Origin: Escherichia phage JLBYU43
Length of the DNA: 64,000 bases
Reading direction: 5' to 3' (one strand)
Sequence record: NC_105512.1
In this document: piece after piece, positions 29,312-43,828 of the stretch
Position numbering within the stretch: the first letter of the stretch is position 1
How the letters are laid out: every line of letters begins with the position of its first letter
Program-made: the position numbers and the translations under genes
The notes under the pieces: model-generated
What the model was told of the DNA's origin: nothing
The model's input: only the letters and a program-made list of their open reading frames with translations
Databases searched by the model: none

Positions 29312-29318
29312 ATTCGTT

Positions 29319-29394: not shown

Positions 29395-29400
29395 ATTGTT

Positions 29401-29476: not shown

Positions 29477-29484
29477 ATAATTCT

Positions 29485-29685: not shown

Positions 29686-29710
29686 ATTTTATTTCCTATT
29701 TAAGTTAACT

Positions 29711-29787: not shown

Positions 29788-30255
29788 AATTGAAAACTCG
29801 CAGTGTTAGCGAAACCATCCTCAAATAGCATTTTCTAGAATACTAATCAAGTTATCTCCTATTGCACGCAGCTCAAGACGAGTACGAATTTTCAATTGTG
29901 GCGGCTCTCCGAAACTCATCACACTAACAACTAGTTGATTACACCTGGATTCTCGCCCAGGAAATTCTCTAGAAAGGCGCACCGTTACACTTTGAGCCAT
30001 TGAATGGGATGGTCTCTCATCCCTACTAACTACTTGATCCTTACGATCCGTCGGTTAGCACGAGCAGCGACCCTTCATATATTGTATAGTGCTCAGAAGG
30101 TCATTAGAAGCACTTATCAAGAAGCAGAAGGACTTGAACCTTCACGAGATAGACCATTTATCTCAGCCTCGTTTTCGGGTATCTTATGAGGAGTGGATGT
30201 TCCCCTTACGCCCTTTAGGAAGCCCCGTCTACCGATTCCGGCATACTTCAAGATT

Positions 30256-30350
30256 TGGAGGTAGGTAAGGGGATCGAACCCTTACACCGTATCACTACGA
30301 TCAACCGATTTCAAGTCGGAGTCCAGCGCCAGCCATTGGATTGACCTACC
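30256..30350 (-). tRNA. tRNA-Ser (UGA), long variable arm
   Basis: perfect acceptor GGTAGGT/ACCTACC, CCA encoded, loop CTTGAAA, 95 nt. Confidence 0.55.
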
Positions 30351-30362
30351 GTATAAATTGTT

Positions 30363-30456
30363 TGGCGGAAAAGATGGGAGTTGAACCCATAAGGCGGTAT
30401 TGCTACCACTCAACCGATTTCCAATCGGGTTTAGTCACCAGTCTATTTGCTTTTCC
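30363..30456 (-). tRNA. tRNA-Ser (GGA), long variable arm
   Basis: perfect acceptor GGAAAAG/CTTTTCC, CCA encoded, loop TTGGAAA. Confidence 0.5.
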
Positions 30457-31027
30457 GTTGTTCTGTTAATACTTTTGGGCTTAATCCGGTTAGTTTAGTA
30501 TATCGTCTACGTAAAGTGGACTCTGATACTTCTAGATCTTTAGCTGCCTTAACCCACCCCATTAATAATACCTTTTCAGTTATGTCTTCTAAGGACAATT
30601 CTGGTTTTATTAACTTTCCTGTAGGTTTTGGCTTACAATTTGTACATGTTACTGATCTCTGAAGCATTAGATTTCCACATAAGGGGCAAGGTACTCTACT
30701 ATCAGACCATCCATTATCTTTATTAGTTTTCTTCTGATGTTCTATTTTTGATAAAACTTGAAGATTATCTTTAGATAGATTCAGCCTATCTCTATCCTTG
30801 TGATCTACTTCTAATTCAGGGTCAAATAGATTATATAAGTCCCCAAATACATGAGAAATAATTCGGTGTATAAGTACCGAAGTTTGCTTACCATTTATCT
30901 GTAATTTTACAGCAGGGTATCCATCAACTATATATCTTGATAAAATTTTATTAGTAAATGTAGATAACACATCCCCTGTTTCATTTACTAAATACCCTGG
31001 TGCATCTTTTATTGGTACAAACTGCAT
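30443..31027 (-). CDS. HNH homing endonuclease
   Basis: NUMOD4-like N-terminus, HNH motif EVDHKDRDRLN, Cys-rich zinc ribbon. Confidence 0.7.
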   Translation of the reverse strand: MQFVPIKDAPGYLVNETGDVLSTFTNKILSRYIVDGYPAVKLQINGKQTSVLIHRIISHVFGDLYNLFDPELEVDHKDRDRLNLSKDNLQVLSKIEHQKKTNKDNGWSDSRVPCPLCGNLMLQRSVTCTNCKPKPTGKLIKPELSLEDITEKVLLMGWVKAAKDLEVSESTLRRRYTKLTGLSPKVLTEQRKSK

Positions 31028-31043
31028 ACATTACCCTATAAGT

Positions 31044-31128
31044 TGGTGGGGCTAGGGAGACTCGAACTCCCACGCATTTAAGCTACGGAATCTAAGGCCG
31101 TATTGTCTACCAGTTCCAGCATAGCCCC
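31044..31128 (-). tRNA. tRNA-Leu (UAG), long variable arm
   Basis: perfect acceptor GGGGCTA/TAGCCCC, CCA encoded, loop CTTAGAT. Confidence 0.55.
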
Positions 31129-31133
31129 AAATT

Positions 31134-31207
31134 TGGTGGAGAAAGAGGGAGTTGAACCCTCGTCTTCTGCGTGCAAAGCAGATGTTCTACCATTAAACTA
31201 TATCCCC
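31134..31207 (-). tRNA. tRNA-Ala (UGC)
   Basis: G3-U70 wobble (Ala identity element), loop TTTGCAC, CCA encoded. Confidence 0.6.
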
Positions 31208-31467
31208 AAATTCTTTAGTTTACTAAGGCTATTAGCTCGGTGTGCGTATTACCCTCAGACATTAGCCAGTAGAGGATAACCGCTCTTCACAAACCCGATA
31301 CACTATTCAGTTGCCGCTGAATCTAGTGGACTAATCTAGAACTTCTCCCGAGTCGTAGGGATTGTGCTTTTTGGCAGCCAGTCCTAGGTCGAGCTAATAC
31401 CTTAGTGAACTTTGATGAGGATTTCTCCTCATCAATTTATATAAATATTATAACAAGAAATTAAACA

Positions 31468-31827
31468 TTAAGCAAGTACATTTTTGCAGATTTCTTGTAT
31501 TTCCTTAACGTCACTAACGAAAAGGTAATCAGAGCTTCCAGAGTGCATACTCTGCATAACCACACCACCATCCGGTGCATCTTCTTTCAAAGTAATACCT
31601 AACCAGAACTTGGCAAAACTAGGTGTTACCTCACCTTGACTTGCCTTGAACACATCGCCTTCTGTGATCTCTTGACCAGTGGAGAGTCCCATGTATGGTA
31701 CGTTCAGATCAATATCTTTGTAGAACTCAGCTAGATCTTGCTCGAAATCCCAACCTTTAGAGATAGCGAACTCCATTGTTACATGACCGAAATAGCCTTG
31801 AACCTTGCTTGATAATTGCATTTGCAA
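31468..31827 (-). CDS. hypothetical protein
   Basis: 119-aa ORF. Confidence 0.5.
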   Translation of the reverse strand: MQMQLSSKVQGYFGHVTMEFAISKGWDFEQDLAEFYKDIDLNVPYMGLSTGQEITEGDVFKASQGEVTPSFAKFWLGITLKEDAPDGGVVMQSMHSGSSDYLFVSDVKEIQEICKNVLA

Positions 31828-31846
31828 TTCCTTATTTTGAGTTAAT

Positions 31847-31920
31847 TGGTACTCGGTGATAGAATCGAACTATCGCAACCGCCGTGTAAAGACGGGGTTC
31901 TCCCATTAAACTAACCGAGC
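31847..31920 (-). tRNA. tRNA-Val (UAC)
   Basis: T-arm GATAG-TTCGATT-CTATC, loop TTTACAC, CCA encoded. Confidence 0.55.
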
Positions 31921-31924
31921 AATT

Positions 31925-32002
31925 TGGTGGATTGCCTGGGATTCGAACCCAGAACTGACGGATTAAAGGTCCGCTACTCTTATCCAGTTGAGCTAGCAAT
32001 CC
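31925..32002 (-). tRNA. tRNA-Lys (UUU)
   Basis: perfect acceptor GGATTGC/GCAATCC, loop CCTTTAA (C at position 33), CCA encoded. Confidence 0.5.
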
Positions 32003-32466
32003 AATTTTTCTACTAATAATTTAAAAGCATCTAGTACAGGTACTTCAAACCATTCTCCAGATACTATATAATCTTTAAGAAGATTATGTAATTCTTTCTC
32101 TGTACGTCTTTTATCCGACGAAAATCTGAAATGGTATAGCTTGTAGTCTCTATTAGGTGAATAAGTTTGATAACTTGCTAACCTCTCATTCACATCTATA
32201 GTCATACCTATTTTATACATGCCTGGCCATGCTGGATTACCAATTACATATACAAAACCTTCCGTTATAGGTATTTTATGCTCCCTTTTATACTTTAAGA
32301 GATTTAAGGCTGCCATTCGATAACAGAATCTAAACTCTGAAGTTTTTAACTTACCTTCTTTACCTGAAATTTCGTTATATTTGCTCATATAAGCTCTTAT
32401 GAGCTTATCATCTATAATGAAGTTATCAGGAAGGTTTAAGGCAGATAAAACTTTATTAATTAGCAT
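31993..32466 (-). CDS. T5orf172-domain protein (GIY-YIG-like)
   Basis: motif VYVIGNPAWPGMYKIGMT...ERL...YQTYSP. Confidence 0.55.
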   Translation of the reverse strand: MLINKVLSALNLPDNFIIDDKLIRAYMSKYNEISGKEGKLKTSEFRFCYRMAALNLLKYKREHKIPITEGFVYVIGNPAWPGMYKIGMTIDVNERLASYQTYSPNRDYKLYHFRFSSDKRRTEKELHNLLKDYIVSGEWFEVPVLDAFKLLVEKLDC

Positions 32467-32641
32467 AGACTTCCTTAATAGAATAAACTTTTAAGTAAGG
32501 GTGATTAATACCAAATTCCGCCATCACTTCGTTTTCATCTTTACCGTAATGGGCTAGTGGATACTTCTTACGATCTTTGCTAGAACGCAGATCACTTACT
32601 TTTAAACGAAATAATTTCATTTCGAAATCCTTCTATTAAAT

Positions 32642-32719
32642 TGGAAGCGGGTGTAGGAATCGAACCTACCTCTTTCTAGCTTATGAGACTAGCGATCTCT
32701 ACCAGAGATCTAACCCGCA
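32642..32719 (-). tRNA. tRNA-Met (CAU)
   Basis: loop CTCATAA, T-arm GTAGG-TTCGATT-CCTAC, CCA encoded; 1-72 pair mismatched. Confidence 0.5.
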
Positions 32720-32725
32720 ATTGTT

Positions 32726-32803
32726 TGGTCTCCGTGGGAGGATTTGAACCCCCGACCCTACCGCCCCAAACGGAACGCTCTGGCCAAACTGAGCTACACG
32801 GAG
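32726..32803 (-). tRNA. tRNA-Pro (UGG)
   Basis: perfect acceptor CTCCGTG/CACGGAG, loop TTTGGGG, CCA encoded. Confidence 0.6.
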
Positions 32804-33119
32804 AATATTCTTTGTTAACTCACTTTATAAGATATATTATACAGAGAATTAAGTGAAATAGCAAATGAATTTTTAATAAATTTACTTATTGCGTAGGCCA
32901 CCTGGAGGGTTCAAGCCCCACGGCTGACAAAGAAGTTTGCGAGACTTCTCTTAAATGCCAGAATAGACCCGCCGATCTATCGGAACCTACATAATAAGTA
33001 AACTTTCGTTTACCTACACCTACCTGGTCGGGAGGATTTTCAGCGACTAGAACCGGCCGGAAACTCATCGCCTTGTTTACCCTGTAGTCCCACTATAAGT
33101 GACGCGACCTACAAAGATT

Positions 33120-33193
33120 TGGTGCGGTCGGAGGGAATCGAACCCTCAACTTCTGGTTGGCAACCAAAAATTATACCTTTTAACTACGAACGC
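33120..33193 (-). tRNA. tRNA-Gly (GCC)
   Basis: T-arm GAGGG-TTCGATT-CCCTC, loop TTGCCAA, CCA encoded. Confidence 0.5.
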
Positions 33194-33406
33194 ATAATGA
33201 GTCAATCTAGGTAGGACTTGAACCTACTATCACTTGTGCGGATTTACGAGAACCATTCTTTCACTCGAATCGAACGAGCTTCTACCCTCGGCAAGCTGGT
33301 GTCCCCTCTCCACCACGCTAGAATGATAATTAATGCCTGCTCCTTTGAATCAAGAAGTCCACCCCGGACTTTGGGTCTTTGCAGTACATCACGCTGCTCT
33401 GATGTT

Positions 33407-33483
33407 TGGTACACCCACTAGGACTTGAACCTAGAACCCTCCGCTTAAGAGGCGGTAGCTCTAACCAATTGAGCTATGGATGT
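33407..33483 (-). tRNA. tRNA-Lys (CUU)
   Basis: acceptor ACATCCA/TGGGTGT, loop CTCTTAA, CCA encoded. Confidence 0.5.
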
Positions 33484-33489
33484 ATAATT

Positions 33490-33542
33490 TGGCGGTACTA
33501 AGGGTAATCGAAACCCTACCTCTCCCGTGACAGGGGAGTACC
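33490..33542 (-). tRNA. compact tRNA-like element without D-arm (anticodon loop GUC, Asp-like)
   Basis: 53 nt: acceptor-like stem, hairpin CTCCC-CTGTCAC-GGGAG, T-arm AGGGT-TTCGATT-ACCCT, CCA encoded; no room for a D-arm. Confidence 0.3.
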
Positions 33543-33574
33543 ATTACCAAGCCAGCCCCGATCGCATAATTTAT

Positions 33575-33760
33575 TTACTCAGCTTTGAGTTTTTCGATAG
33601 CTTCCTCAACCTCTTTTAGAGCTTCACGACGCTCTACTTGACCTTGAAGTTCTTCAAGAAGTTCAGCTTTCAGAGCCTTAATAATATTACCACGAACCTT
33701 AATATTATTAATCATATTATCACGATCAGCTTCTAGTCGAGCAATTGCACGAGTTGTCAT
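33575..33760 (-). CDS. small coiled-coil protein
   Basis: 61-aa charged ORF. Confidence 0.35.
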   Translation of the reverse strand: MTTRAIARLEADRDNMINNIKVRGNIIKALKAELLEELQGQVERREALKEVEEAIEKLKAE

Positions 33761-33787
33761 ATCTATTTCCTCAGTTGTTAGTGAAAT

Positions 33788-33873
33788 TGGCGGGCCGTGT
33801 AGGAGTTGAACCTACTTTATCCTTGCGGATACGGATTAACAGTCCGGCGCTTAAACCGTTCAGCCAACGACCC
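33788..33873 (-). tRNA. tRNA with anticodon GUU (Asn-type loop) and long variable arm
   Basis: 86 nt; acceptor GGGTCGT/ACGGCCC, loop CTGTTAA, variable hairpin ATCC-GCAA-GGAT, CCA encoded. Confidence 0.5.
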
Positions 33874-34025
33874 TAAATTTATATTGCTGACTAGGATTTT
33901 CACCTAGACGGAGTTAGCACCGTAGCGTGTAGCGGCATACCTCTCCAAACCGTGCCTCATCTTTCAATTACTGAGGCAGTGTTCCTACGCGTGCCTGAAC
34001 TGTTTTAACAATTCTTTCAGCAAAT

Positions 34026-34101
34026 TGGACGACCGCATGAGATTCGAACTCACATAAAAAGGATTTGCAATCCTTCGCCTAAGCCATTCAGCCAACAGTC
34101 G
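34026..34101 (-). tRNA. tRNA-Cys (GCA)
   Basis: loop TTGCAAA on a perfect AAGGA/TCCTT stem, discriminator U, CCA encoded. Confidence 0.6.
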
Positions 34102-34282
34102 ATTTATCTTGTTTTTCGAGATCTTCAAATTCTAGATTTATAGAATGTCCTATGGACCTAGCATAATAGCTATCTCCAGCATCAGTATCTCTTTCAATTT
34201 GGTACAACCTGTACGCAACGATCGTACCTCTTCTCCTTTTCAGGGAGATACTAATCCTTCTCAGTTAAAGTTGCATATTATC

Positions 34283-34353
34283 TGGCAGGGGTAAAGGTAT
34301 TCGAAACCTTTTCATGGGTTTTGGAGGCCCACTAGCAACCTATGCGTACCCCA
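34283..34353 (-). tRNA. tRNA-Trp (CCA)
   Basis: 3' end CCCCTGCCA as in E. coli tRNA-Trp, loop CTCCAAA. Confidence 0.55.
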
Positions 34354-34362
34354 ATTATTAAT

Positions 34363-34437
34363 TGGCACACCCACGGAGAATTGAACTCCGATTCTCAGAT
34401 TGAAATCCTGATGTCCTAACCATTAGACGATAGGTGC
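34363..34437 (-). tRNA. tRNA-Glu (UUC)
   Basis: Glu-type D-arm GTCTAATGGTTAGGAC, loop ATTTCAA, CCA encoded. Confidence 0.55.
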
Positions 34438-34445
34438 ATTAATTT

Positions 34446-34526
34446 TGGTGGGGGATGGAGGACTCGAACCTCCGCGTGGTATACCCGGTCTACAGCCAGG
34501 CGCCGTCGCCACTGAGCCAATCCCCC
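34446..34526 (-). tRNA. tRNA, probable anticodon GUA (Tyr)
   Basis: perfect acceptor GGGGGAT/ATCCCCC and T-arm, CCA encoded; anticodon arm fold ambiguous. Confidence 0.45.
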
Positions 34527-34632
34527 ATATTTGAATGAAAAGTAAGTCGGTTAAACTCAAAGTGGAATATTTCAGGAAATCCTGACTTTACCCCTAAAAG
34601 CAACTCGCTTAATTACTTCTCATTCAGATATG

Positions 34633-34661
34633 TTTCCAAAGTAGATAACTATTATATCAAG
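34633..34661 (-). promoter_or_regulatory. sigma70 promoter upstream of the tRNA cluster (TTGCTC-17-TATAAT)
   Basis: consensus -10 and 17-bp spacer on the minus strand; a 13-bp-stem hairpin lies immediately upstream at 34662-34701; ~110-nt leader before tRNA-Tyr. Confidence 0.5.
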
Positions 34662-34715
34662 TTTTATGGCACTGAGCAAGTCAGATTTTAAAGAACTTGC
34701 TCAGTGCTATATCAG

Positions 34716-35009
34716 TTAATCAAATGAAGGAGTGACTTTCAAAGTGAATGGAAGTTCGAATACCTCTTCACCTTCATCAGTAACAGTGACTACTCGACCC
34801 TCTAGATTATTCATGCTGATTTCAACATCAGCCGTAGCATCAGGAGCCATACCAGCCTCAATACATTGAGCTTTGATCTCTGGAAGAAGTTCTACATTGT
34901 AGAAATAAAGCCACTCGATCTCACCTTCCCAACCACCCCAGGATTTACATACTGAGCTTTCAATACCAGTTGCTGTAACACGTTTTGACATTCTGATTCC
35001 TCTCATCAA
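34716..35009 (-). CDS. hypothetical protein
   Basis: 97-aa ORF. Confidence 0.5.
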   Translation of the reverse strand: MMRGIRMSKRVTATGIESSVCKSWGGWEGEIEWLYFYNVELLPEIKAQCIEAGMAPDATADVEISMNNLEGRVVTVTDEGEEVFELPFTLKVTPSFD

Positions 35010-35080
35010 TTTATATAACTATTATATCAGAAATTTAAGGCAAAAGGCAAGTACATTTTTAAAAATTCTGTTTGGAGGAG

Positions 35081-35287
35081 TTAAAGACCGGATTCATCAG
35101 CCAGATCTAGACCAATAAGGGTGATTGCCATGATTGCAGCAGCCTGTTCTTTTTCACTCACATCTTTAGCAGACGCGATAATCTTTTCAAATTGTGATTT
35201 AAAATCTGCTACTTCAGCTTCTAAACCAGCTTCAGCAATAATGCCTTTCACCATAATACGCTGCGTCATAATTTCAGGATTTGCCAT
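35081..35287 (-). CDS. hypothetical protein
   Basis: 68-aa ORF. Confidence 0.4.
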   Translation of the reverse strand: MANPEIMTQRIMVKGIIAEAGLEAEVADFKSQFEKIIASAKDVSEKEQAAAIMAITLIGLDLADESGL

Positions 35288-35462
35288 TTGTTTTCTCCAG
35301 TTTCATTTTTAGTATTTTGCAAACAAAGTCAATATCTTCATCCGTGCCTAGATCTCTATCTTCAAGGGTTGCCTTGAAATTTTTTGTTAGTTCCATAAGA
35401 ATAACTTCCCTGGAACGACGTGTTGGCGGAGGTGGATGTCTATACATCTTAATTCCTTAATT

Positions 35463-35537
35463 TGGTGGGTCGGAGGAGAATCTAACTCCTACTCGTTAGC
35501 TTATGAGGCCACCGCTTTAACTTTAAGCTACCGACCC
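35463..35537 (-). tRNA. tRNA with anticodon CAU (Met/fMet/Ile2)
   Basis: perfect acceptor GGGTCGG/CCGACCC, loop CTCATAA, CCA encoded; anticodon stem weak. Confidence 0.5.
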
Positions 35538-35543
35538 TATGTT

Positions 35544-35632
35544 TGGAGGAAGAAGTGGGAATCGAACCCACAAGGCTATATTTCAAACTGACAGATTAGC
35601 AATCTGCTGCAATACCGTTATGCTATTCTTCC
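35544..35632 (-). tRNA. tRNA-Ser (GCU), long variable arm
   Basis: perfect acceptor GGAAGAA/TTCTTCC, loop TTGCTAA, CCA encoded. Confidence 0.55.
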
Positions 35633-35653
35633 GAATTTATAAGATATATTATA

Positions 35654-36172
35654 TTAGAAATTTAGCTTCATAGCAAGAAAATTTTTCAAGTTTTCGGTAG
35701 ACATCTCATCCACATCTACAGGAGAAACAAATCCATTTAATTGTTTAGCAAATTTTTCACCTGCAGGATCATTATCCCCAACAGCTACCAATTTAAAAGG
35801 TAGTAATTTCAATTGCTTTAACAACGCTTTTCCAGGGGAAGAACCCAACATTGCTAGGGCTGGATAACCAGCATTATGTAATGCAACTGCCTTAAATACA
35901 GATTCAGCAATCAATACTACTTTTTCATCTCCATTGAGAGTTTCTAGTCCCCATACACACTGGGTAGTAGAATAAGTAAAATATTTAGCTTCAAAGGGAC
36001 ACTTACCATGACCTTTTGGAGCAGAAGGATTATAAGTTTGATAGCCCCTCAACATCCCAGAGAAATCATATAACGGGACTGTTAGCCATCCTTCCGGACT
36101 TAACCAGCAATGATATTTTTCTGTATCAAATCCCCTAGATAGAAGGTGCTGTGTTAGCTCATCAACACTCAT
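35654..36172 (-). CDS. Toprim-domain protein (primase-like)
   Basis: conserved Glu (LIAES) and DxD (VAVGDNDPAG) typical of DnaG-type Toprim. Confidence 0.45.
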   Translation of the reverse strand: MSVDELTQHLLSRGFDTEKYHCWLSPEGWLTVPLYDFSGMLRGYQTYNPSAPKGHGKCPFEAKYFTYSTTQCVWGLETLNGDEKVVLIAESVFKAVALHNAGYPALAMLGSSPGKALLKQLKLLPFKLVAVGDNDPAGEKFAKQLNGFVSPVDVDEMSTENLKNFLAMKLNF

Positions 36173-36210
36173 ATTTGATCTCCTAGTTAGTTTTATAAAT
36201 ACATTATATA

Positions 36211-36242
36211 GAAAAGCCCGCGCTCTCGGAGGAAACGCGGGC
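36211..36242 (-). terminator. rho-independent terminator
   Basis: AGCCCGCG/CGCGGGCT stem followed by a U-tract on the minus strand. Confidence 0.5.
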
Positions 36243-36267
36243 TTGTTTCGAAGATTACGTGTAACTA

Positions 36268-37284
36268 TTACTTATTACGCATATCCATAATCATCTGGCC
36301 ATCATAACCAGTACCTACAACAGTCTGAGGAACGCCACCCTGATATTTTTCAGCGCGTTTCATATCAACTTCCAGCTGCTTCCAACGAATCATTTCAGGA
36401 GTAATGGTACGTTGCAGAGCGGCGTTAGCTTCAGCTTCTTTCTTAGCTGCGTACAGTTTAGCATCTGCGTCACGTTCGTTAGCTACTGCCATATTTTCAC
36501 GAGCAGAACGATCAGCTTCAGCTTGCTTAACTTTCTGCTGTGCTTCTTGTTCAACACGAGCTAGTTCAGCTTTTGCAGCGTTAACTTGTTCTTCACGAAC
36601 TTTTGTGTTTTGTACCTGTTCCATGATTACCGGTGGCAGAGTAATATCCTGAAGGAATACTTGCTTAACGGTGTAACCATAAGGACGCGCGTACTCTTCT
36701 ACTTCTTGCTGAATAGCGGTTTGCAGTTGAGCCTGAATCTTAGCGTCGAACAGATCTTGTGCTTTTGGTACAGACTTACCAAACTCACGAATCGTAGACA
36801 GCATCTTCTCTTCAACGTACTTGTTCAGAGCTTGATCCTGAGTACCTGCGTTAATACGGTTAATCGGTGCCTTAGAACCATCAAACTGCAACATAACAGT
36901 CAAGTCAACAGTGGATTTAAACTTATCCTGGCTAGGAACCTGAAGTTTATCTAATTTTACAGCAATATCTTTTGTACTAAAAGTATCGAAAGATGCAAAC
37001 GGGTTTACAAGATGGAAACCAGGCAATACTGGATTAGGATCTACTTTACCCAGAAATGTTTGGGTTTTAACCGTACCATCAGAAACAATAGTATATGAAT
37101 TAAAAGCTAGAATCAAGCCTGCTAAACCAACTACAGCACCAATACCCCAACGTTTAATAGTATATGAATTAAAAGCTAGAATCAAGCCTGCTAAACCAAC
37201 TACAGCACCAATACCCCAACGTTTAATAGTACGAATTACTTTCTGCTCAGAAGTCAGTTCTTTCATATTTTTAGTATTAAACAT
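36268..37284 (-). CDS. SPFH/band-7 (prohibitin, HflC-like) membrane protein
   Basis: N-terminal TM anchor, SPFH core, C-terminal coiled coil; contains an exact 69-bp tandem duplication. Confidence 0.7.
   Translation of the reverse strand: MFNTKNMKELTSEQKVIRTIKRWGIGAVVGLAGLILAFNSYTIKRWGIGAVVGLAGLILAFNSYTIVSDGTVKTQTFLGKVDPNPVLPGFHLVNPFASFDTFSTKDIAVKLDKLQVPSQDKFKSTVDLTVMLQFDGSKAPINRINAGTQDQALNKYVEEKMLSTIREFGKSVPKAQDLFDAKIQAQLQTAIQQEVEEYARPYGYTVKQVFLQDITLPPVIMEQVQNTKVREEQVNAAKAELARVEQEAQQKVKQAEADRSARENMAVANERDADAKLYAAKKEAEANAALQRTITPEMIRWKQLEVDMKRAEKYQGGVPQTVVGTGYDGQMIMDMRNK
37087..37231. repeat. 69-bp perfect tandem duplication (2.1 copies)
   Basis: 37088-37156 is identical to 37157-37225; in frame, duplicating the TM segment of the SPFH protein. 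Confidence 0.85.
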
Positions 37285-37318
37285 ATGTTTCCTTTGTTTT
37301 AGTTACAGTTAATAAAAT

Positions 37319-37393
37319 TGGCCGAGGTGACAGGATTCGAACCTGCATAAAGGAATTTAGAAGACTCCTGCCTATCCCTTAGACTACACCCCG
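37319..37393 (-). tRNA. tRNA-Arg (UCU)
   Basis: T-arm GCAGG-TTCGAAT-CCTGT, loop CTTCTAA, CCA encoded. Confidence 0.55.
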
Positions 37394-37995
37394 TTTAGGT
37401 ATTTTTAAGAACTCTCGTAAAAGTCCTTAAAGATACCCAACGGTAGGTAGGGTCAGCCCCCTCAGATTAAGCTCTGCAGCCCTTCCGTCAGACAATATCT
37501 TCCAGTTTAAGTCAAGGTGACTTTGTGGTTATGTTCTCCGTATGTGAAGAACTCGGTTAGGCTTAGGTCATGACTCCCAGCCTACTGCTGCCGCTCAACA
37601 GGAATTATCGCGAATTACCTGTACTATTGGGCACCATTAGTGACATCTCTCATGTCAGCATTTCCCACTTTGTGGATAGCTTGAAAAACTACTCCGATAT
37701 GGAGAAAGAACTTCACTATCCTAGAAATACCTTCTAAAGTTCTTCTTTAGCCTGGACATAGTTAAATCGTAATAAAACTATTCAGCAGACTAGTTGGTTA
37801 GCCTGGAACCAACTACCGCGTGGTTTAGGCAGTGCGTAACTAACCTAGGAAGCTTTTACGTTAAAAGCATCAGTTATCCAGTTCTTACCGACCGTAGGAT
37901 TCGAACCTACATCTTCCACCAGTTACGGCTTGATAATACCAATTATACTAGGACGGCAGTGTTACTACATAAGTGATTTCCACACACCACTATTA

Positions 37996-38478
37996 CTAAC
38001 CAAAGTTAGTAAATTCTTTATGTAAGGATTCTCTTAATATCTTAGAGGCCTCGAAAGCCTCTTCCGCAGTTTTAAACCCTCTTTTACTGTAATTTTTTCC
38101 TTCATGTCTTACTTGGTATCTCCAGGAAGAGCCTTCCCAACTTACTCCTTTGTACCCAGAAGTATTATTGCATTGTTGGTTTCTATTCGCATTGTTTTGC
38201 GATCTAGAGGCGTCCCTTAGATTATTTTTCCTATTATTTCTAGGATTAGTATCCTTATGATCTACTTCTTCAGGCCTATATCCATAGTACATAATAAACA
38301 ATAAGACATGCAGTTGATAGGTGTCGCCCTGAAATCCCACATCTGGGTGTGATTTCTTATTATTGGCACAACACTCTTTCAAACCTTTCTTTGTTTTCCT
38401 ATATAGTACCCCATTATCAGGATCAGCTACAAAATATTTTTCAAGTATTTCTTTAGTAGGGTATTCTTTCCTTTTCAT
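37996..38478 (-). CDS. HNH endonuclease with AP2-like domain
   Basis: HNH motif (EVDHKDTNPRNN) plus C-terminal YKGVSWEGSSWRYQV. Confidence 0.65.
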   Translation of the reverse strand: MKRKEYPTKEILEKYFVADPDNGVLYRKTKKGLKECCANNKKSHPDVGFQGDTYQLHVLLFIMYYGYRPEEVDHKDTNPRNNRKNNLRDASRSQNNANRNQQCNNTSGYKGVSWEGSSWRYQVRHEGKNYSKRGFKTAEEAFEASKILRESLHKEFTNFG

Positions 38479-38521
38479 GAAACTATTATATCAACTTTTT
38501 CGATGTTAAGCAAATCAATTT

Positions 38522-38965
38522 TTAATTAAATTCGCCAGCAACCTGAGCAGCAATGCCACCGTCGTAACGACCAGGAAACTCTTCCTTAATCGCTTTCATC
38601 AGCATACCTTTTGTAATCCCAGGATTCAACTTAACTAATTCTGCAAAGTATTTGCGAATCTCAGAATCAGATAACTGAGGCGGCAGATACTGCTGTAACC
38701 ATTTGTTCAGTATATATTCATACTGAGCAGACTGCAAGCTATAATTATCAAGGTCTTGACCGTGAAGTTTAGCTTTCGTCTGATTAATGCTTTTCAGTTG
38801 AGCTTTTAGATAAGATACAAACTGTTCAGAAGTAATGAAGTCTTTATCAACACGCTGAAGATCTCCGATTATGGTCTGGTAGCTTTTAGCTACTTCTTTA
38901 TCAGAACCATTAAACTTGGATTCCTGCAAAGCCCTACGCAAAACATCTAGAATATTCTCTTCCAT
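38522..38965 (-). CDS. GatB/YqeY-domain protein
   Basis: 147 aa; C-terminal pattern (GITKGMLMKAIKEEFPGRYDG) resembles the YqeY family. Confidence 0.5.
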   Translation of the reverse strand: MEENILDVLRRALQESKFNGSDKEVAKSYQTIIGDLQRVDKDFITSEQFVSYLKAQLKSINQTKAKLHGQDLDNYSLQSAQYEYILNKWLQQYLPPQLSDSEIRKYFAELVKLNPGITKGMLMKAIKEEFPGRYDGGIAAQVAGEFN

Positions 38966-39156
38966 TATTTAATTCCCAGTGCTTGGTTAAAAGATTGTTC
39001 TGTCATAACTGCTGAGACTTTGGCGAAATCAAACTTCTTAGGATTTGTAGTAATTTCAGCAACGTTAGTAGTTTTAACTGTTTTCGTAGTACGAATACCG
39101 TGAGTGTTAACACCAATAATTACTAAGGTTTTCATTGTTCGCTTTCCTCTCATCAA
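38965..39156 (-). CDS. hypothetical protein
   Basis: 63-aa ORF. Confidence 0.4.
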   Translation of the reverse strand: MMRGKRTMKTLVIIGVNTHGIRTTKTVKTTNVAEITTNPKKFDFAKVSAVMTEQSFNQALGIK

Positions 39157-39204
39157 TTTATACAGTTATTATACAGAATTTTAAGGCTTAAAGCAATTGA
39201 ATTT

Positions 39205-39651
39205 TTAAATTTTCTTAGTCACAGGCTTATAGAACGTGTGGCCTTGAATTTTAGTTGTTTTCTTGAACGTTTTCGTCCAGTACGGCTTTTCTTTACCACT
39301 ATGGAAGTATAACGCTCCATATGTTGGATCATGTGGTAAATCAACGTAGTATATCACTCTAGCTACATTCTTAGCAGTTTGCCAAGCCGCATCGGTTTTA
39401 TCAACTTTTGGTCTCTTAGATACCCAAGAGAACTGGTTAGACTGATATACTACTTTACAGTAAGAATCCGGGAATGTGCCAGAGTTAACACGGTTTTTAG
39501 TGACCTGTGCAACTGCAACCATTCCCTTCGTGCCCTCACCTCGGCTCTCAAAATAGACATTTTTTGCAATGCAATCAATCTGTTTAGCGTCGTAGGTAGC
39601 ATGACTCTGAAAGCTAAAGGTTAGGGCAGCCATTAGTAAGACTGCCTTCAT
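39205..39651 (-). CDS. secreted cell-wall hydrolase (SleB-like)
   Basis: signal peptide plus Hydrolase_2-like core (NVYFESRGEG...GALYFH). Confidence 0.6.
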   Translation of the reverse strand: MKAVLLMAALTFSFQSHATYDAKQIDCIAKNVYFESRGEGTKGMVAVAQVTKNRVNSGTFPDSYCKVVYQSNQFSWVSKRPKVDKTDAAWQTAKNVARVIYYVDLPHDPTYGALYFHSGKEKPYWTKTFKKTTKIQGHTFYKPVTKKI

Positions 39652-39663
39652 TCTTTTTACTCC

Positions 39664-40485
39664 TTAAAATAGATCATATTCTAATCTATTGGGATTTTCT
39701 CGGTATCCATAAGACGTAAGGGTTCCTCTCATGTACTCTGCGTCAACAGGATTAGATGTTACTAGAACCACTTTTAGTGGTCTTTGACCTAAAAATAGTA
39801 TATGATCTAATAAATCTTTTCCTTGTACCTCTGGATCCCCTAAATCTGAGTCCATAAATAAATAGGATCCTGTGAAACTAAACATATCTGATAGTTCCAG
39901 CGCACCTATAACTGTACGACAAATAATGGACATTTCAGGTAGATCTCTAACATCGTCTATTAGAATATTGGTCTGCTTCCCAATTTCTGCATTACATAAA
40001 CCATTTACTAGTTTTTCTCTTTCCCCTTTAGCTTGTTCGAAAGTGGTGAAGCCAGGAGATACGAAAAACTTTCCACCTAATGTAATGCTATACGCAAAAC
40101 CCTCGGAGAGGAGTTCTACACCTACGGTTTTATCAGTATTAATCCTATTTAACTTAAAATTTGTCTCTCTTAGATTAAGAATTCTGTTATCCCACGGTAT
40201 GGTATTTATATGGTCGATCATATCAGGTGGCTCTTCACCATAATGGAGCAACCACGCTATTCGGTGCCCATAAATAATTGTGGGTTTATTACCTAAGAGC
40301 AAGCTAACTCTGATGTACCCATTAGAGTTCTTACTACATATTTCTCTCCCAGCATATAGGGTGTGCCAAGTTTTATTCTTGTATTTATTAGGCTTATAAA
40401 ATAATTTACCTGTATAAGGATTATATTCTATAATTTCTCGAATATAATCTATATATGATAGTATTTGTTTTTGTAATTTACCCAT
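39664..40485 (-). CDS. HNH homing endonuclease
   Basis: HNH motif (HRIAWLLHYG...IDHIN...N). Confidence 0.65.
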   Translation of the reverse strand: MGKLQKQILSYIDYIREIIEYNPYTGKLFYKPNKYKNKTWHTLYAGREICSKNSNGYIRVSLLLGNKPTIIYGHRIAWLLHYGEEPPDMIDHINTIPWDNRILNLRETNFKLNRINTDKTVGVELLSEGFAYSITLGGKFFVSPGFTTFEQAKGEREKLVNGLCNAEIGKQTNILIDDVRDLPEMSIICRTVIGALELSDMFSFTGSYLFMDSDLGDPEVQGKDLLDHILFLGQRPLKVVLVTSNPVDAEYMRGTLTSYGYRENPNRLEYDLF

Positions 40486-40936
40486 AATAGCCTCGTCTCA
40501 TCAATTTAAAAATATATTATATAGAAAACTAAACTAATTAGCAAATACATTTTTAAATTGAGAGACTAGTAAACCGATAAACAGCCTAGAGGCGCCACAG
40601 GCCATATCTTATGAGCCATGTACCTTTGATCTAGGGTTTGAATCATCAACGAATACTTTGCATCTTTTAGCTTTAGAAGGTTAGAAGTTTGAGTGCTTTT
40701 AACTTTTCAGCTTTCATACTTGAGCGTTGATCTTTGAAGTTGTGTTGGTACTACCAACGACGTCTTGTTTTATTTTGACAGATGCAACATCTGCCGAAAA
40801 ATAAATTAAGATAATCTCCAATAGATTATACTGTATCTAGTATGGTCAGCGGTCTTATTTAACCTCGTATTTCAACCGCTGCTGCGAGGTAAGATGCTTG
40901 GGCTTTCGTCTACCGATTTACTAGTCTTTTAAATTA

Positions 40937-41575
40937 TTACTCTACTTCGATAAAAGTAGAGGCGTTGGACTCAGACAGAACAAAGTCAACGTTGGTTGCA
41001 AAGTCCTGGTATTCTTCGTCGTGTTGCTTGATCAGCTTTTCCAGCTCCAGCGGATCGATCAGGAACGGAGTGTTCTTGAGTTCCAGCAGGTTAAGCTGCA
41101 TCTTAACTTCATCCTCGGAAGTCTTCTTGTCGCGGGTAGCCATGGTATCCTGCAAACGCTCATACTTAGCATCAAACTGAGCTTTCTGAGTGTTAAACTT
41201 AACAGTAGCAGCATGGAACTGCTTACGCATGTTAGCCAGCAACTGAGCTTTGAGTTCCATAGAACGCTTAGCTTCGATTGCTTCCGCAACAGTCATAGAG
41301 CGCGAACCGATCTCTACAACAGTTTCAGCATTGCTCTTGATCAGCGCAGCTTTCAGACGATCACGCTGGGACATCATATCCAGCAGAGACTGGAAATCAG
41401 TCTTAATACGGGTAGACAGATCGTCTACTTCGATTGCAGCGCCAACTACAACCTGGTTCTTGTCCTTACCTTCACCAACAGCGATCAAAAGCTGTTGTTC
41501 AGTAGCTTTACGGATTTTAGCTTCCAGAGACTTGATAGTTGCCAGAGCACGAGTTTTAGAGATACGAGTAGTCAT
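40937..41575 (-). CDS. hypothetical protein
   Basis: 212-aa ORF in a locally GC-richer segment. Confidence 0.5.
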   Translation of the reverse strand: MTTRISKTRALATIKSLEAKIRKATEQQLLIAVGEGKDKNQVVVGAAIEVDDLSTRIKTDFQSLLDMMSQRDRLKAALIKSNAETVVEIGSRSMTVAEAIEAKRSMELKAQLLANMRKQFHAATVKFNTQKAQFDAKYERLQDTMATRDKKTSEDEVKMQLNLLELKNTPFLIDPLELEKLIKQHDEEYQDFATNVDFVLSESNASTFIEVE

Positions 41576-41628
41576 TATTTGCTTCCTTATATGAAGTTTG
41601 AGATTTGAATTTGTTTAAATTTGGTCTA

Positions 41629-41811
41629 TTACAGACCAATTGCCAGCAGAGTGCGCAGAACAGTATCGTTACTGTTATCAATTTTAGGATTAGCACGATT
41701 TAGCAGATCAAAGATTTTCTGGATACCTGATTGACGTTCAGCCATACGACGGATACCCAGATTACGAGTAGCTTTCTTACCATTTTTACGAACATTTTTA
41801 GATACTGGCAT
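41629..41811 (-). CDS. hypothetical basic protein
   Basis: 60-aa ORF. Confidence 0.4.
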   Translation of the reverse strand: MPVSKNVRKNGKKATRNLGIRRMAERQSGIQKIFDLLNRANPKIDNSNDTVLRTLLAIGL

Positions 41812-41881
41812 ATTTGTTTTCCTTTTATTGTTTTCTCAAATTTATGAATATATTATACAGAATTTTGGAGCCGGAAGCAAA

Positions 41882-42583
41882 TCAAATTTTCATTTTTTCG
41901 ATCATAGCTGCAACACAATAGCTCTCAACTAGGGCATCGAATGCTGGGTCGTGCTTAACCGGATAGATCCCATAACGAATGGTGTCCATCTTCTCCATTT
42001 TAGCTATTGCCCAGCTAATACCTTCGGTTTCTAGAGCTTTATAACTATAGCCAGTTTGCATCCAGAGATTACGAAGAGATCTAACATTACCCAAGTTCCA
42101 GAATTTCCACGGAACTATTTCTTCATTGGTTCCAGCATGGAAAGTGTTTGCAGAGTAGATAGTCATATCAAACTCTGGGCCATTGCCATAATACAAAGCA
42201 TTTTCGCCTAGAGCCAACTCCATAATATTTTGAGCCATAGAGAAGGCAGCATGGTTAGAGCCAAGTTTATTAGTGCAATGATGTTTACCATTTTGGAAGG
42301 CAACCAGTTTTGGATTAGGCTCATTCATAGCTTCCATAATGTGGATAGCAGACGGGCTATGTTTAGCCTGATCCATCCAGAATGCTAGAGTAGATGCTGT
42401 AACTTTGGCACCAGAATTAAGTTGATCTTGTACATCTAAAGTAACAAATACTAGATCAGGGTCTTTATCAATTCCATGCATAGCCACAAAAGCGAATGAA
42501 GGCATTGCGATATGGGTAGTACCACAATCTCCTGGAGTTCCTAGAGATTCAATATCTAGCATACCAAATGGTTTTACTTTCAT
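41882..42583 (-). CDS. putative 3'-5' exonuclease (DEDD-like)
   Basis: Exo I-like LDIESLG and Exo III-like HDPAFDAL motifs. Confidence 0.45.
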   Translation of the reverse strand: MKVKPFGMLDIESLGTPGDCGTTHIAMPSFAFVAMHGIDKDPDLVFVTLDVQDQLNSGAKVTASTLAFWMDQAKHSPSAIHIMEAMNEPNPKLVAFQNGKHHCTNKLGSNHAAFSMAQNIMELALGENALYYGNGPEFDMTIYSANTFHAGTNEEIVPWKFWNLGNVRSLRNLWMQTGYSYKALETEGISWAIAKMEKMDTIRYGIYPVKHDPAFDALVESYCVAAMIEKMKI

Positions 42584-42611
42584 AACTTATCCTTTATTGT
42601 GTAGAAAACTA

Positions 42612-42833
42612 TTAAAGAGCTGTCTCTTTAATAGACTCCCACTTCTTGGGGTCTTTAAAACCAGGAAGCATATCCTCACTGACATCCCAGTTCTCTTCCA
42701 TATAGAGATCATCTAAGTCTAGCTCATCCACTGCTAAATCCATTATCTCATGACTAGAAAGTCGTGTATAATCTCTAGCGGACTTATGAGTGCTAGCACG
42801 GTTAAAATCATTCTTTGCTACAAAATTACGCAT
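42612..42833 (-). CDS. hypothetical protein
   Basis: 73-aa ORF. Confidence 0.4.
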   Translation of the reverse strand: MRNFVAKNDFNRASTHKSARDYTRLSSHEIMDLAVDELDLDDLYMEENWDVSEDMLPGFKDPKKWESIKETAL

Positions 42834-42874
42834 AGTTTCTCCGATTAAGAGGGGCTTTCGCCCCTATTTATCTA

Positions 42875-43390
42875 TTACTTCGCTTTACGCTTGCGAGCTG
42901 GTTTAGCAGATTTACGAGCAGAATCACCCGTGAACTTAATGCCTACACCGTAACACAGAGCACGAACGTTATCTTTACTATACTCTACGCCAAAGATATT
43001 TGGCTTAACAGAACCAAACTGCCCGCGAGTATCACGCAATACATCTGCCGTTGGTTTACGCTTCTGGTTAACTGCCTTCTCATAGTCTTTCATAGACATA
43101 CCATTACGAGAGAACAATTCAGCCCCAGCGTTGAAGCTCAGGGAAACTGGGACAGATTTGTGGCCGTAATTTTCTACATACATAACCATTTTGTAGGATT
43201 TACGGGTGGCATTTTTAGCTTTAGGCTTCTGACGAATCGGAGCCGGATTATTCAGTGCTTGCGCAGCCTGAGCATCGGTGGGATGCTTACGCAGGTGGCG
43301 TTCCAGACGAGCCTTGCGATTAGCCTCAGTCTTCGGGAAAGTTTTAACTGCCGGAGCTGCTTGAGTTTTTGCGTTTTTCTGCTTAGCCAT
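42875..43390 (-). CDS. hypothetical basic protein
   Basis: 171-aa ORF, Lys/Arg-rich. Confidence 0.5.
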   Translation of the reverse strand: MAKQKNAKTQAAPAVKTFPKTEANRKARLERHLRKHPTDAQAAQALNNPAPIRQKPKAKNATRKSYKMVMYVENYGHKSVPVSLSFNAGAELFSRNGMSMKDYEKAVNQKRKPTADVLRDTRGQFGSVKPNIFGVEYSKDNVRALCYGVGIKFTGDSARKSAKPARKRKAK

Positions 43391-43473
43391 TATTTGTTTT
43401 CCTTTTTGTTTATCAATTTATGAAGTATATTATACGAGAATTTGAAGCGTTTAGCAAATGAATTTTTTAAAAA

Positions 43474-43752: not shown

Positions 43753-43828
43753 AAAGCCCTCCTCACTTTCAATACGAATATTATACTAAATTAGAGGGCT
43801 TTAAGCAAGAAAATTTTTAATTTATTTA

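What the first reader, a model, noticed from the sequence alone, without database searches (positions are those of the whole stretch)
37087..37231. Exact 69-bp in-frame tandem duplication inside the SPFH/prohibitin gene
37088-37156 and 37157-37225 are identical, with the repeat starting a third time. This duplicates 23 residues (IKRWGIGAVVGLAGLILAFNSYT), giving the SPFH protein two consecutive copies of its transmembrane anchor. A perfect duplication is either very recent, under selection, or an assembly artefact.
Basis: seen in the sequence. Interest (0 to 1): 0.5.

Follow-up and report, generated by a model that had tools for sequence, protein, structure and literature searches.

The report
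Private anchor duplication in phage SPFH gene
A T5-like phage carries a perfect, in-frame 69-base tandem duplication that doubles the membrane anchor of a dispensable accessory membrane-scaffold (SPFH) gene; it looks like a recent replication-slippage mutation found in no sampled relative, so it is a real but fairly ordinary feature.

Summary
Window 37087-37231 is a 69-nt unit present 2.1 times at 100% identity. It is the only such repeat in the 64 kb. It lies in a minus-strand gene (36268-37284, 338 aa) with a Pfam Band_7/SPFH domain, the orthologue of phage T5 gene T5.080. It duplicates 23 residues that hold the single N-terminal hydrophobic anchor.

No relative examined has it: 100 of 433 phage records, 40 IMG/VR loci and 120 protein-cluster representatives all show one copy. 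The junction is absent from three large collections.

The unit is bounded by a 7-bp direct repeat (TACTATT, Thr-Ile). That repeat already sits 69 nt apart in 11 of 29 single-copy relatives. A randomly placed unit would show this about 1 time in 1000. This points to slippage or microhomology-mediated recombination rather than a concatenation artefact.

T5.080 lies inside the viable T5 st0 deletion, so a disruptive allele would be tolerated.

The predicted consequence is inferred only: a two-helix hairpin that moves the SPFH domain from periplasm to cytoplasm, or a mixed topology.

Verdict: most likely a recent, neutral or mildly harmful private mutation. Reads were not available, so an artefact is not excluded. 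Interest is low.

The parts
36268..37284 (-). SPFH/Band 7 gene, 338 aa including the duplication. It is the orthologue of phage T5 gene T5.080, which is 315 aa in relatives.
   Evidence: ORF list. Pfam Band_7 at E 5.4e-18 over aa 75-248. PHROG 200 at E 1e-84. 433 T5-like phage records hold it. T5.080 is annotated 'contains single transmembrane domain'.
37087..37155 (-). Copy 1 of the 69-nt unit on the + strand. In the protein it is the second (downstream) anchor copy, about aa 44-66.
   Evidence: TRF; sequence; script check that the two units are identical.
37156..37224 (-). Copy 2 of the 69-nt unit on the + strand. In the protein it is the first (upstream) anchor copy, about aa 21-43.
   Evidence: TRF. 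The alignment with phage AZ23 shows a clean 69-nt gap.
37225..37231 (-). A 7-bp partial third copy, AATAGTA (coding strand TACTATT, ..T-Thr-Ile). This is the microhomology at the duplication endpoints. The same heptamer starts each full copy, at 37087-37093 and 37156-37162.
   Evidence: Sequence. The same 7-bp direct repeat, 69 nt apart, is present in 11 of 29 single-copy relatives, and a 6-bp version in 7 more. The chance of 7 bp or more for a random 69-nt unit is about 1e-3.
37171..37218 (-). Hydrophobic segment H1, aa 23-38, WGIGAVVGLAGLILAF.
   Evidence: Kyte-Doolittle scan finds segments 23-40 and 46-63. Charge and hydrophobicity table. AF2 helix 12-35.
37102..37149 (-). Hydrophobic segment H2, aa 46-61, identical to H1. 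It is separated from H1 by the 7-residue loop NSYTIKR, which has 2 positive charges.
   Evidence: AF2 helix 40-62 follows a low-confidence break at 36-39.
36541..37062 (-). SPFH (Band 7) domain, aa 75-248. It is followed by a long predicted helix (aa 218-293) typical of cage-forming SPFH proteins.
   Evidence: Pfam; AF2 secondary structure; Foldseek against PDB.
37288..37294 (-). Shine-Dalgarno-like AAGGAAA, 3 nt upstream of the ATG. It is unaffected by the duplication.
   Evidence: Read from the sequence. It is conserved in AZ23.
37319..37393 (-). tRNA-Arg (TCT) immediately upstream of the gene on the same strand. Context only: the arrangement is the same as in T5.
   Evidence: ARAGORN; Rfam at 49.3 bits; T5 annotation.

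Best explanation
This is a real, evolutionarily very recent, in-frame tandem duplication.

**How it arose.** The most likely cause is replication slippage, or microhomology-mediated illegitimate recombination, between two copies of a pre-existing 7-bp direct repeat. The repeat is TACTATT, codons ..T-ACT-ATT (Thr-Ile). The two copies lie 69 nt apart and bracket the membrane-anchor coding segment of the T5.080-type SPFH gene.

**Shown**
- The repeat is exact.
- The endpoints coincide with the ancestral direct repeat.
- Every sampled relative has one copy.
- Both copies share a sequence that no sampled relative has.
- The T5 orthologue is deleted in a viable mutant.

**Inferred**
- Normal topology. 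The normal protein is a type-II single-pass membrane protein. It has a short, positively charged N-tail in the cytoplasm, with the SPFH domain and coiled coil in the periplasm, as in HflK/C.
- Altered topology. The duplication puts a second identical 16-residue, Gly-rich hydrophobic stretch 7 residues after the first. By sequential insertion, H1 acts as signal-anchor and H2 as stop-transfer. The default outcome is then a helical hairpin that leaves the roughly 275-residue SPFH part in the cytoplasm.
- Why a mixture is plausible. H2 is only marginally hydrophobic and the connecting loop carries Lys-Arg. A mixed or frustrated topology could result, with some molecules keeping the domain periplasmic and an extra segment hanging out.
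- Likely effect. Either way the allele is probably impaired or neutral rather than improved. It persists because the gene is dispensable under propagation conditions, and perhaps because a single-plaque bottleneck fixed it.
For: - **Exact repeat.** 2.1 copies at 100% identity, unique in the window.
- **Clean insertion.** There is a 69-nt gap against the closest relative, AZ23.
- **Single copy in phage records.** All 100 listed records out of 433 span 964 or 955 nt against a 1033 or 1027-nt query, or align through one copy only.
- **Single copy elsewhere.** The same holds in 40 IMG/VR loci. Of 120 protein-cluster representatives, 117 have one hydrophobic segment and none has two.
- **Junction not found elsewhere.** The exact and degenerate junction patterns gave no true hit in IMG/VR, GTDB genomes or JGI metagenomes. 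The exact protein is not on record.
- **Microhomology.** TACTATT sits at both endpoints in the de-duplicated window gene and in 11 of 29 relatives; 7 more have 6 bp. P(7 bp or more) for a random 69-nt unit in this sequence is about 1e-3.
- **Recency.** The two copies are identical. The 30 relatives carry 17 distinct unit sequences and none equals the window's; the closest differ by 1 nt.
- **Dispensability, and a local precedent.** T5.080 lies in the 4.4 kb of T5 missing from the st0 mutant. The st0 junction is annotated as a 10-bp direct-repeat recombination site.
- **Topology signal.** 112 of 118 homologues have more Lys+Arg in the N-tail than in the 15 residues after the anchor. In the window protein the N-tail has 6 K+R, the loop NSYTIKR has 2 and the C-flank has 1. 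The H1/H2 cores score about -0.2 kcal/mol on a crude Hessa sum.
- **Structure model.** AF2 models two helices (12-35, 40-62) with a low-confidence break.
- **Closest folds.** They include the type-II SPFH cage subunits erlin, prohibitin and HflK/C.
Against: - No reads, coverage or independent assembly of this phage were available, so the physical existence of the second copy is unverified.
- The exact phage is not in any searched collection. The closest records are about 92-96% identical.
- Polymerase template switching in vitro (PCR or MDA chimeras) would also use microhomology.
- The topology consequences are predictions from simple charge and hydrophobicity rules and an AF2 model with pLDDT below 50 at residues 30-39. 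I could not inspect model coordinates and no dedicated topology predictor was available.
- The Hessa values were recalled from memory and applied without position dependence.
- Dispensability was shown for T5 in the laboratory, not for this phage or in nature. The anchor is under purifying selection: among the 20 closest relatives, 59 of 61 differing codons are synonymous.
Confidence: 0.7

Rival explanations
1. Assembly or post-assembly artefact. The genome really has one copy. The second copy was created when contig ends or a circular overlap were joined without proper trimming, or it came from chimeric reads.
For: - A perfect duplication found in no relative is what an artefact would look like.
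- No reads could be examined.
- The period, 69, is an odd number within the range of user-chosen k-mer sizes (own knowledge of de Bruijn assemblers).
- The phage is not in public collections, so no second assembly exists for comparison.
Against: - A blind end-joining artefact has random endpoints. Here the endpoints fall exactly on a 7-bp direct repeat that pre-exists in relatives, which a random placement gives about 1 time in 1000.
- Naive concatenation of a k or k-1 overlap would give a period equal to the overlap, with no dependence on microhomology (inference).
- 69 is not a default k of common assemblers (own knowledge).
- This is the only such repeat in 64 kb, and the reading frame and ORF are intact.
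- De Bruijn assemblers tend to collapse tandem repeats, not create them, and every k-mer in a contig must occur in reads (own knowledge).
Confidence: 0.12
2. Adaptive change of function. The duplication was selected because a two-helix hairpin anchor, or a cytoplasm-facing SPFH domain, or a denser ring of transmembrane helices in the SPFH cage, benefits this phage on its host.
For: - The frame is preserved and both copies are intact.
- Perfect direct repeats of 69-76 nt are expected to be lost by the reverse slippage unless recent or favoured (own knowledge of tandem-repeat instability).
- In-frame tandem duplications have been selected in another phage gene during experimental coevolution (PMC6365445).
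- SPFH complexes work in both orientations in E. coli: HflKC faces the periplasm and QmcA the cytoplasm (own knowledge; both appear among the fold matches).
- The anchor contains small-xxx-small motifs (GAVVG) that could pack two copies together (sequence, inference).
Against: - The allele is absent from every one of the several hundred sampled relatives across Salmonella, Escherichia, Shigella, Klebsiella and Yersinia T5-like phages, and from the wider family. There is therefore no recurrence or spread.
- In-frame status follows automatically, because the two heptamers are in the same codon phase.
- The orthologue is dispensable in T5, so neutral persistence suffices.
- No functional data exist for this gene family: NCBIfam and PADLOC gave no hit, and the literature search found only domain annotations.
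Confidence: 0.1
3. Real but heterogeneous. The phage stock is a mixture of single-copy and double-copy genomes, and the consensus happened to report the duplicated form.
For: Tandem duplications in phage populations coexist at several copy numbers: long reads showed 0 to 4 extra copies in one isolate in PMC6365445. A 69-nt perfect repeat can expand and contract by slippage (own knowledge).
Against: The sequence neither supports nor contradicts this. An assembler normally reports the majority path (own knowledge), so the duplicated form would still be the dominant one.
Confidence: 0.08

Closest known systems
Phage T5 gene T5.080 (AAS77126.1, AY543070 39791-40738) and its orthologues in Tequintavirus and related Demerecviridae
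   Same: It occupies the same locus, immediately downstream of tRNA-Arg and the RNAX stretch in the tRNA region. The protein is about 90% identical, with the same N-tail, anchor sequence, SPFH domain and C-terminal helix.
   Different: T5.080 and all sampled orthologues are 314-316 aa with one anchor. The window protein is 338 aa with two identical anchors.
Type-II single-pass SPFH cage proteins: E. coli HflK/HflC, mitochondrial prohibitins and ER erlins
   Same: The overall fold and domain order match: N-terminal TM, SPFH domain, long helix (Foldseek E 2e-14 to 1e-10). The positive N-tail predicts the same N-in / domain-out orientation.
   Different: Sequence similarity is only remote: the best PDB sequence hit is QmcA at E 1.6e-4. 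There was no NCBIfam HflK/HflC hit. There is a single gene rather than a K/C pair. Cage formation and any FtsH link are untested. None of these proteins has a duplicated anchor.
Hairpin-anchored or cytoplasm-facing SPFH proteins: stomatin, flotillins and E. coli QmcA
   Same: If H1 and H2 form a hairpin, both termini and the SPFH domain would be cytoplasmic. That is the arrangement in stomatin and flotillin (own knowledge). These proteins are also among the fold matches.
   Different: Their hairpins or anchors are ancient, diverged sequences rather than a perfect repeat. The hairpin in the window protein is a prediction only.
T5 st0 deletion (AY692264), formed at a 10-bp direct repeat in the same genome region
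   Same: It is illegitimate recombination between short direct repeats in the T5 tRNA region. It shows that such events occur and are tolerated there, and it removes this very gene.
   Different: It is a deletion of several kb rather than a 69-nt duplication. It is in a different phage and was selected in the laboratory for heat stability (own knowledge).
In-frame tandem duplications arising in phage genes during propagation, for example the 1.8 kb duplications in the EfV12-phi1 tail fibre (PMC6365445)
   Same: They are head-to-tail, in-frame, near-perfect copies inside a phage structural or accessory gene, and of recent origin.
   Different: Those were recurrent across replicates, of variable copy number, and linked to host resistance. 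The present duplication is a single observation in a non-structural gene with no evidence of selection.

Membership tests
SPFH / Band 7 (stomatin-prohibitin-flotillin-HflK/C) superfamily | SPFH domain recognised by the curated profile above its gathering score | tested here: met
   PF01145 at 66.1 bits against a cut-off of 23.6, E 5.4e-18, aa 75-248.
SPFH / Band 7 (stomatin-prohibitin-flotillin-HflK/C) superfamily | Fold: N-terminal membrane anchor, alpha/beta SPFH domain, then a long C-terminal helix as in the solved cage subunits | tested here: met
   The AF2 model (mean pLDDT 73.8) has strands at 64-134 and 204-215 and a helix at 218-293. Foldseek hits to erlin1/2, PHB1/2, HflK/C, stomatin and QmcA at E 2e-14 to 2e-9, probability 1.00.
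SPFH / Band 7 (stomatin-prohibitin-flotillin-HflK/C) superfamily | Assembly into large ring or cage oligomers on a membrane | not testable with these tools
   This needs biochemistry or cryo-EM. It is only inferred from the fold.
HflK/HflC, 'modulator of FtsH protease' (the label some records give the orthologue) | Match to the HflK or HflC equivalog models | tested here: not met
   No NCBIfam family at E up to 0.01. The best PDB sequence hits are QmcA and prohibitins at E around 1e-4 to 1e-3, not HflK/C.
HflK/HflC, 'modulator of FtsH protease' (the label some records give the orthologue) | Paired K and C genes forming a heterodimer | tested here: not met
   Only one SPFH ORF lies at the locus. 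Its neighbours are a Toprim-like ORF and tRNA-Arg.
Bacterial lipoprotein (the RefSeq and PHROG 200 label for the orthologues) | Signal peptide ending in a lipobox with an invariant Cys | tested here: not met
   The translated protein contains no Cys. The anchor ends ...GLAGLILAFNSYT. The label appears to be inherited annotation.
Slippage / microhomology-mediated tandem duplication | Head-to-tail copies with no spacer and no filler at the junction | tested here: met
   TRF reports 0% indels and 100% match. The gap against AZ23 is a clean 69 nt.
Slippage / microhomology-mediated tandem duplication | A short direct repeat present at both endpoints in the unduplicated ancestor | tested here: met
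   TACTATT, 69 nt apart, is present in 11 of 29 single-copy relatives, and 6 of the 7 bp in 7 more. The chance expectation is about 1e-3.
Slippage / microhomology-mediated tandem duplication | Physical presence of the junction in the DNA molecule (reads or PCR) | not testable with these tools
   No reads were available. The exact protein and junction are absent from all public collections searched.
Assembly overlap artefact | Repeat length equals the assembler's k or k-1 overlap and lies at a former contig end | not testable with these tools
   The assembly method and contig history are unknown. Period 69 is not a common default k (own knowledge), and the microhomology argues against random joining.

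The most novel reading that the evidence does not exclude
The duplication could be a functional, naturally occurring topology switch. Adding a second copy of its own anchor would convert a periplasm-facing, single-pass (HflC/prohibitin-like) phage SPFH scaffold into a hairpin-anchored, cytoplasm-facing one (stomatin/flotillin/QmcA-like). That would be a one-step snapshot of how the two anchor types and orientations of SPFH proteins can interconvert, and it would give the phage a scaffold acting on the other face of the host membrane.
Probability: 0.08. Interest if true: 0.55.

Novelty: new member of a known kind. Interest (0 to 1): 0.2.

Why it matters
If real, this is a tidy natural example of a microhomology-mediated in-frame duplication that doubles a signal-anchor. 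It is a ready-made pair of alleles (315 aa against 338 aa) for asking how a second, marginally hydrophobic segment changes the topology and assembly of an SPFH cage protein. It also concerns a phage SPFH family (T5.080 / RB43 ORF139c / PHROG 200) that is widespread, mislabelled 'lipoprotein' and functionally unstudied. Practically, it flags a position to check in the assembly before the genome is deposited or annotated. It does not reveal a new kind of system.

Tried and rejected
1. **Link to the neighbouring HNH homing endonuclease ORF (37996-38478).** I asked whether endonuclease-induced repair could have caused the duplication. I rejected this because about 57 phage records carry that ORF at the same place. 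They include phages 2-3, 1Sgal2PP, S113 and mar003J3, whose SPFH genes are single-copy.
2. **Junction scans.** The exact 40-mer and a degenerate pattern for the peptide YTIKRWGIG found nothing in IMG/VR. They gave four hits in genomes and metagenomes. Translation showed all four to be unrelated chance matches.
3. **Exact-protein look-up.** It found no encoding contig, so there is no independent assembly to compare.
4. **Assembly-quality check.** I compared 24 kb of the window with phage Lindwurm. The 64 alignment gaps cluster in a few divergent patches and spurious ORFs. The result is uninformative about sequencing errors, and I draw no conclusion from it.
5. **Defence or HflK/C assignment.** PADLOC and NCBIfam gave no hits.
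6. **Lipoprotein annotation.** Rejected, because the protein has no Cys.
7. **Literature.** Searches for a function of the T5 SPFH protein found only domain listings. One search failed on a term that was too short.
8. **AF2 model.** It could not settle hairpin against extended arrangement.
9. **Programmed or phase-variable repeat.** Rejected. There are only two copies, no relative has any expansion, and the unit encodes a conserved anchor under purifying selection.

Full report
**1. The observation**

Tandem Repeats Finder reports one array at 37087..37231 with period 69, 2.1 copies, 100% matches and no indels. Read directly, copy 1 is 37087-37155 and copy 2 is 37156-37224. The heptamer AATAGTA at 37225-37231 begins a third copy before the sequence departs at 37232. 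Across the whole 64-kb window this is the only long exact tandem repeat; the other five TRF rows are short and imperfect.

The array lies in the minus-strand ORF 36268..37284 (338 aa). Its N-terminus reads MFNTKNMKELTSEQKVIRT-IKRWGIGAVVGLAGLILAFNSYT-IKRWGIGAVVGLAGLILAFNSYT-IVSDGTVKTQ....

**2. What the gene and genome are**

The protein has a Pfam Band_7/SPFH domain at aa 75-248 (66.1 bits against a cut-off of 23.6) and belongs to PHROG 200 (E 1e-84).

An AlphaFold2 model built on 45 homologues (mean pLDDT 73.8) shows N-terminal helices, an alpha/beta SPFH core and a 76-residue helix at 218-293. Foldseek places it with the cage-forming SPFH proteins erlin1/2, prohibitin 1/2, HflK/C, stomatin and QmcA, at E 2e-14 to 2e-9. 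By sequence the nearest solved chains are only remote: QmcA at E 1.6e-4 and prohibitins at about 1e-3. No NCBIfam or PADLOC family matches.

The window carries 23 tRNA genes. It matches several hundred T5-like phages (Tequintavirus and relatives, Demerecviridae) at about 90-96% identity, but none closely enough to be the same phage.

The gene is the orthologue of T5.080, annotated 'contains single transmembrane domain'. T5.080 sits just downstream of tRNA-Arg and the stable 'RNAX' transcript.

Some records label the orthologue 'lipoprotein' or 'modulator of FtsH protease'. The first label fails because the protein has no cysteine. The second is unsupported.

**3. Is the duplication shared?**

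No relative examined has it.
- All 100 listed records out of the 433 that hold the gene (the best 40 plus an even spread of 60) either span 964 or 955 nt against a 1033 or 1027-nt query, or align through one copy only.
- Forty IMG/VR loci encode proteins of 301-316 aa from their in-register start, each with a single anchor. These include RB43-like 175-180 kb phages and 90-kb phages.
- Of 120 protein-cluster representatives, drawn from 179 hits (E ≤ 0.001) in a 5.8-billion-sequence collection, 117 have exactly one hydrophobic segment and none has two. The other three are truncated or fall below the threshold.
- The exact junction 40-mer, and a degenerate pattern for the junction peptide YTIKRWGIG, gave no true hit in IMG/VR, GTDB genomes or JGI metagenomes. 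The four hits that appeared are unrelated sequences.
- The exact protein is not on record.

**4. How it arose**

The alignment with the nearest relative, AZ23, shows a clean 69-nt gap. On the coding strand the unit is bracketed by TACTATT, the last base of the preceding codon plus Thr-Ile. This heptamer occurs once in ...CGT ACT ATT AAA (R-T-I-K) and again 69 nt later in ...TAT ACT ATT GTT (Y-T-I-V).

The same 7-bp direct repeat at the same spacing exists in 11 of 29 single-copy relatives, and a 6-bp version in 7 more. The substrate therefore pre-dated the event. For a 69-nt unit placed at random in this window, microhomology of 7 bp or more occurs with probability about 1e-3.

This is the classic signature of slipped-strand mispairing or microhomology-mediated recombination. 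Because the two heptamers are in the same codon phase, the product is necessarily in frame.

The same genome region in T5 offers a precedent. The st0 deletion junction is annotated as a 10-bp direct-repeat recombination site.

**5. How old it is**

The two copies are identical. Among 30 relatives there are 17 distinct versions of the 69-nt unit and none equals the window's; the nearest differ by one synonymous base. The duplication therefore post-dates the split from every sampled relative.

Among the 20 closest relatives, 59 of 61 differing codons in the unit are synonymous. The anchor is thus under purifying selection in nature. That fits the absence of such duplications elsewhere.

**6. Why it can persist**

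BLAST of T5 37500-42500 against T5 st0 shows that everything up to 41879, including T5.080, is missing from the viable st0 mutant. tblastn with T5.080 also finds nothing there (annotations). The gene is therefore dispensable for laboratory growth of T5, and a damaging allele in the orthologue would be tolerated. Extending this to the present phage is an inference.

**7. Likely consequence for the protein (inferred)**

Across the family, 112 of 118 homologues have more Lys+Arg in the N-tail than in the 15 residues after the anchor. By the positive-inside rule (established knowledge) this predicts N-in / C-out, meaning a periplasmic SPFH domain as in HflK/C.

In the window protein the segments are as follows.
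- The N-tail has 6 K+R.
- H1 and H2 are each WGIGAVVGLAGLILAF: 16 residues, four Gly, and only marginal on a crude Hessa-scale sum.
- The loop between them is NSYTIKR, with 2 positive charges.
- The C-flank has 1 K+R.

Sequential insertion would make H1 the signal-anchor and H2 a stop-transfer. That gives a hairpin and leaves the SPFH part in the cytoplasm. The weak hydrophobicity of H2 and the charged loop make a mixed outcome plausible.

AF2 models two helices (12-35 and 40-62) separated by a low-confidence break. This is compatible with a hairpin but not decisive. SPFH complexes of both orientations exist in E. coli, HflKC and QmcA (own knowledge), so a flipped protein is not necessarily inert. 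Nothing here shows that it is functional.

**8. Rivals**

- **Assembly artefact.** It cannot be excluded without reads. A blind concatenation would not land on a pre-existing 7-bp repeat, and it would give a period equal to the overlap length. I put this at about 0.12.
- **Adaptive reading.** In-frame duplications have been selected in another phage (PMC6365445). Here, however, there is no recurrence in hundreds of relatives and the gene is dispensable. I put this at about 0.1.
- **Mixed stock.** It is possible and would still mean that the duplication is real.

**9. Comparison and novelty**

The mutational mechanism is textbook, and the gene family has been listed as an SPFH ORF in T5 and T4-like phages since 2005-2006 (PMC1524935). 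What is new is only this allele, a two-anchor version of a T5.080-type protein. I class it as a new member of a known kind, of low general interest.

Its main practical value is as a position to verify in the assembly. Its main scientific value would be as a natural pair of constructs for testing how duplicating an anchor changes SPFH topology.

Noticed in passing
window 37886..37957 (-), within the ORF-free stretch 37394..37995: Rfam finds a second tRNA-like element here (35.5 bits against a gathering score of 29, E 1.3e-5) that ARAGORN did not call. The stretch corresponds to T5 'RNAX, stable RNA with unknown functions' (AY543070 40848-41566). Some relatives annotate a 'tRNA-OTHER', 'tRNA-Pseudo' or 'tRNA-Sec' there.
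   Followed up: partly
window 37996..38478 (-): A 160-aa HNH_3 homing-endonuclease-like ORF (E 1.2e-11) lies between the RNAX-like stretch and the YqeY-like T5.081 homologue (38522..38965). It is absent at this place in T5, AZ23 and Lindwurm but present in about 57 other T5-like records. It is not linked to the duplication.
   Followed up: yes
window 36268..37284 and loci L027-L040; proteins P0026, P0045-P0118: The T5.080-type SPFH gene is shared at 55-80% protein identity among several groups. These are T5-like siphophages, 175-180 kb RB43-like myophages, about 90-kb phages, about 165-kb Aeromonas phages, a Klebsiella plasmid and Morganella chromosomes. The N-tail and anchor differ between groups while the domain after ...NSYT(I/V)V.DG is conserved, which suggests horizontal spread of an accessory gene of unknown function.
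   Followed up: partly
orthologue annotations in public records and PHROG 200: The orthologues are widely labelled 'lipoprotein', but the protein has no cysteine and therefore no lipobox. The label looks like propagated mis-annotation.
   Followed up: yes
window 25000..49000 compared with public phages: The window is mosaic. The SPFH gene is closest to E. coli phages AZ23 and AZ21 (95.8%). The adjacent tRNA-Arg/RNAX/HNH segment is closest to Salmonella phage S113 (97.7%). The 24-kb region as a whole is closest to Escherichia phage Lindwurm, at only 77% coverage and 92.6% identity. In T5 and Lindwurm, two or three + strand ORFs sit between the Toprim-like gene and the SPFH gene. In AZ23, nadR and pnuC sit downstream of the SPFH gene. 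The window has none of these: the Toprim-like ORF 35654..36172 is followed directly by the SPFH gene.
   Followed up: no
window 8760..8850 and 8982..9055: There are two imperfect tandem arrays, one of period 23 with 4 copies (76% match) and one of period about 31 with 2.7 copies. I did not examine them. They could be iterons or regulatory repeats.
   Followed up: no
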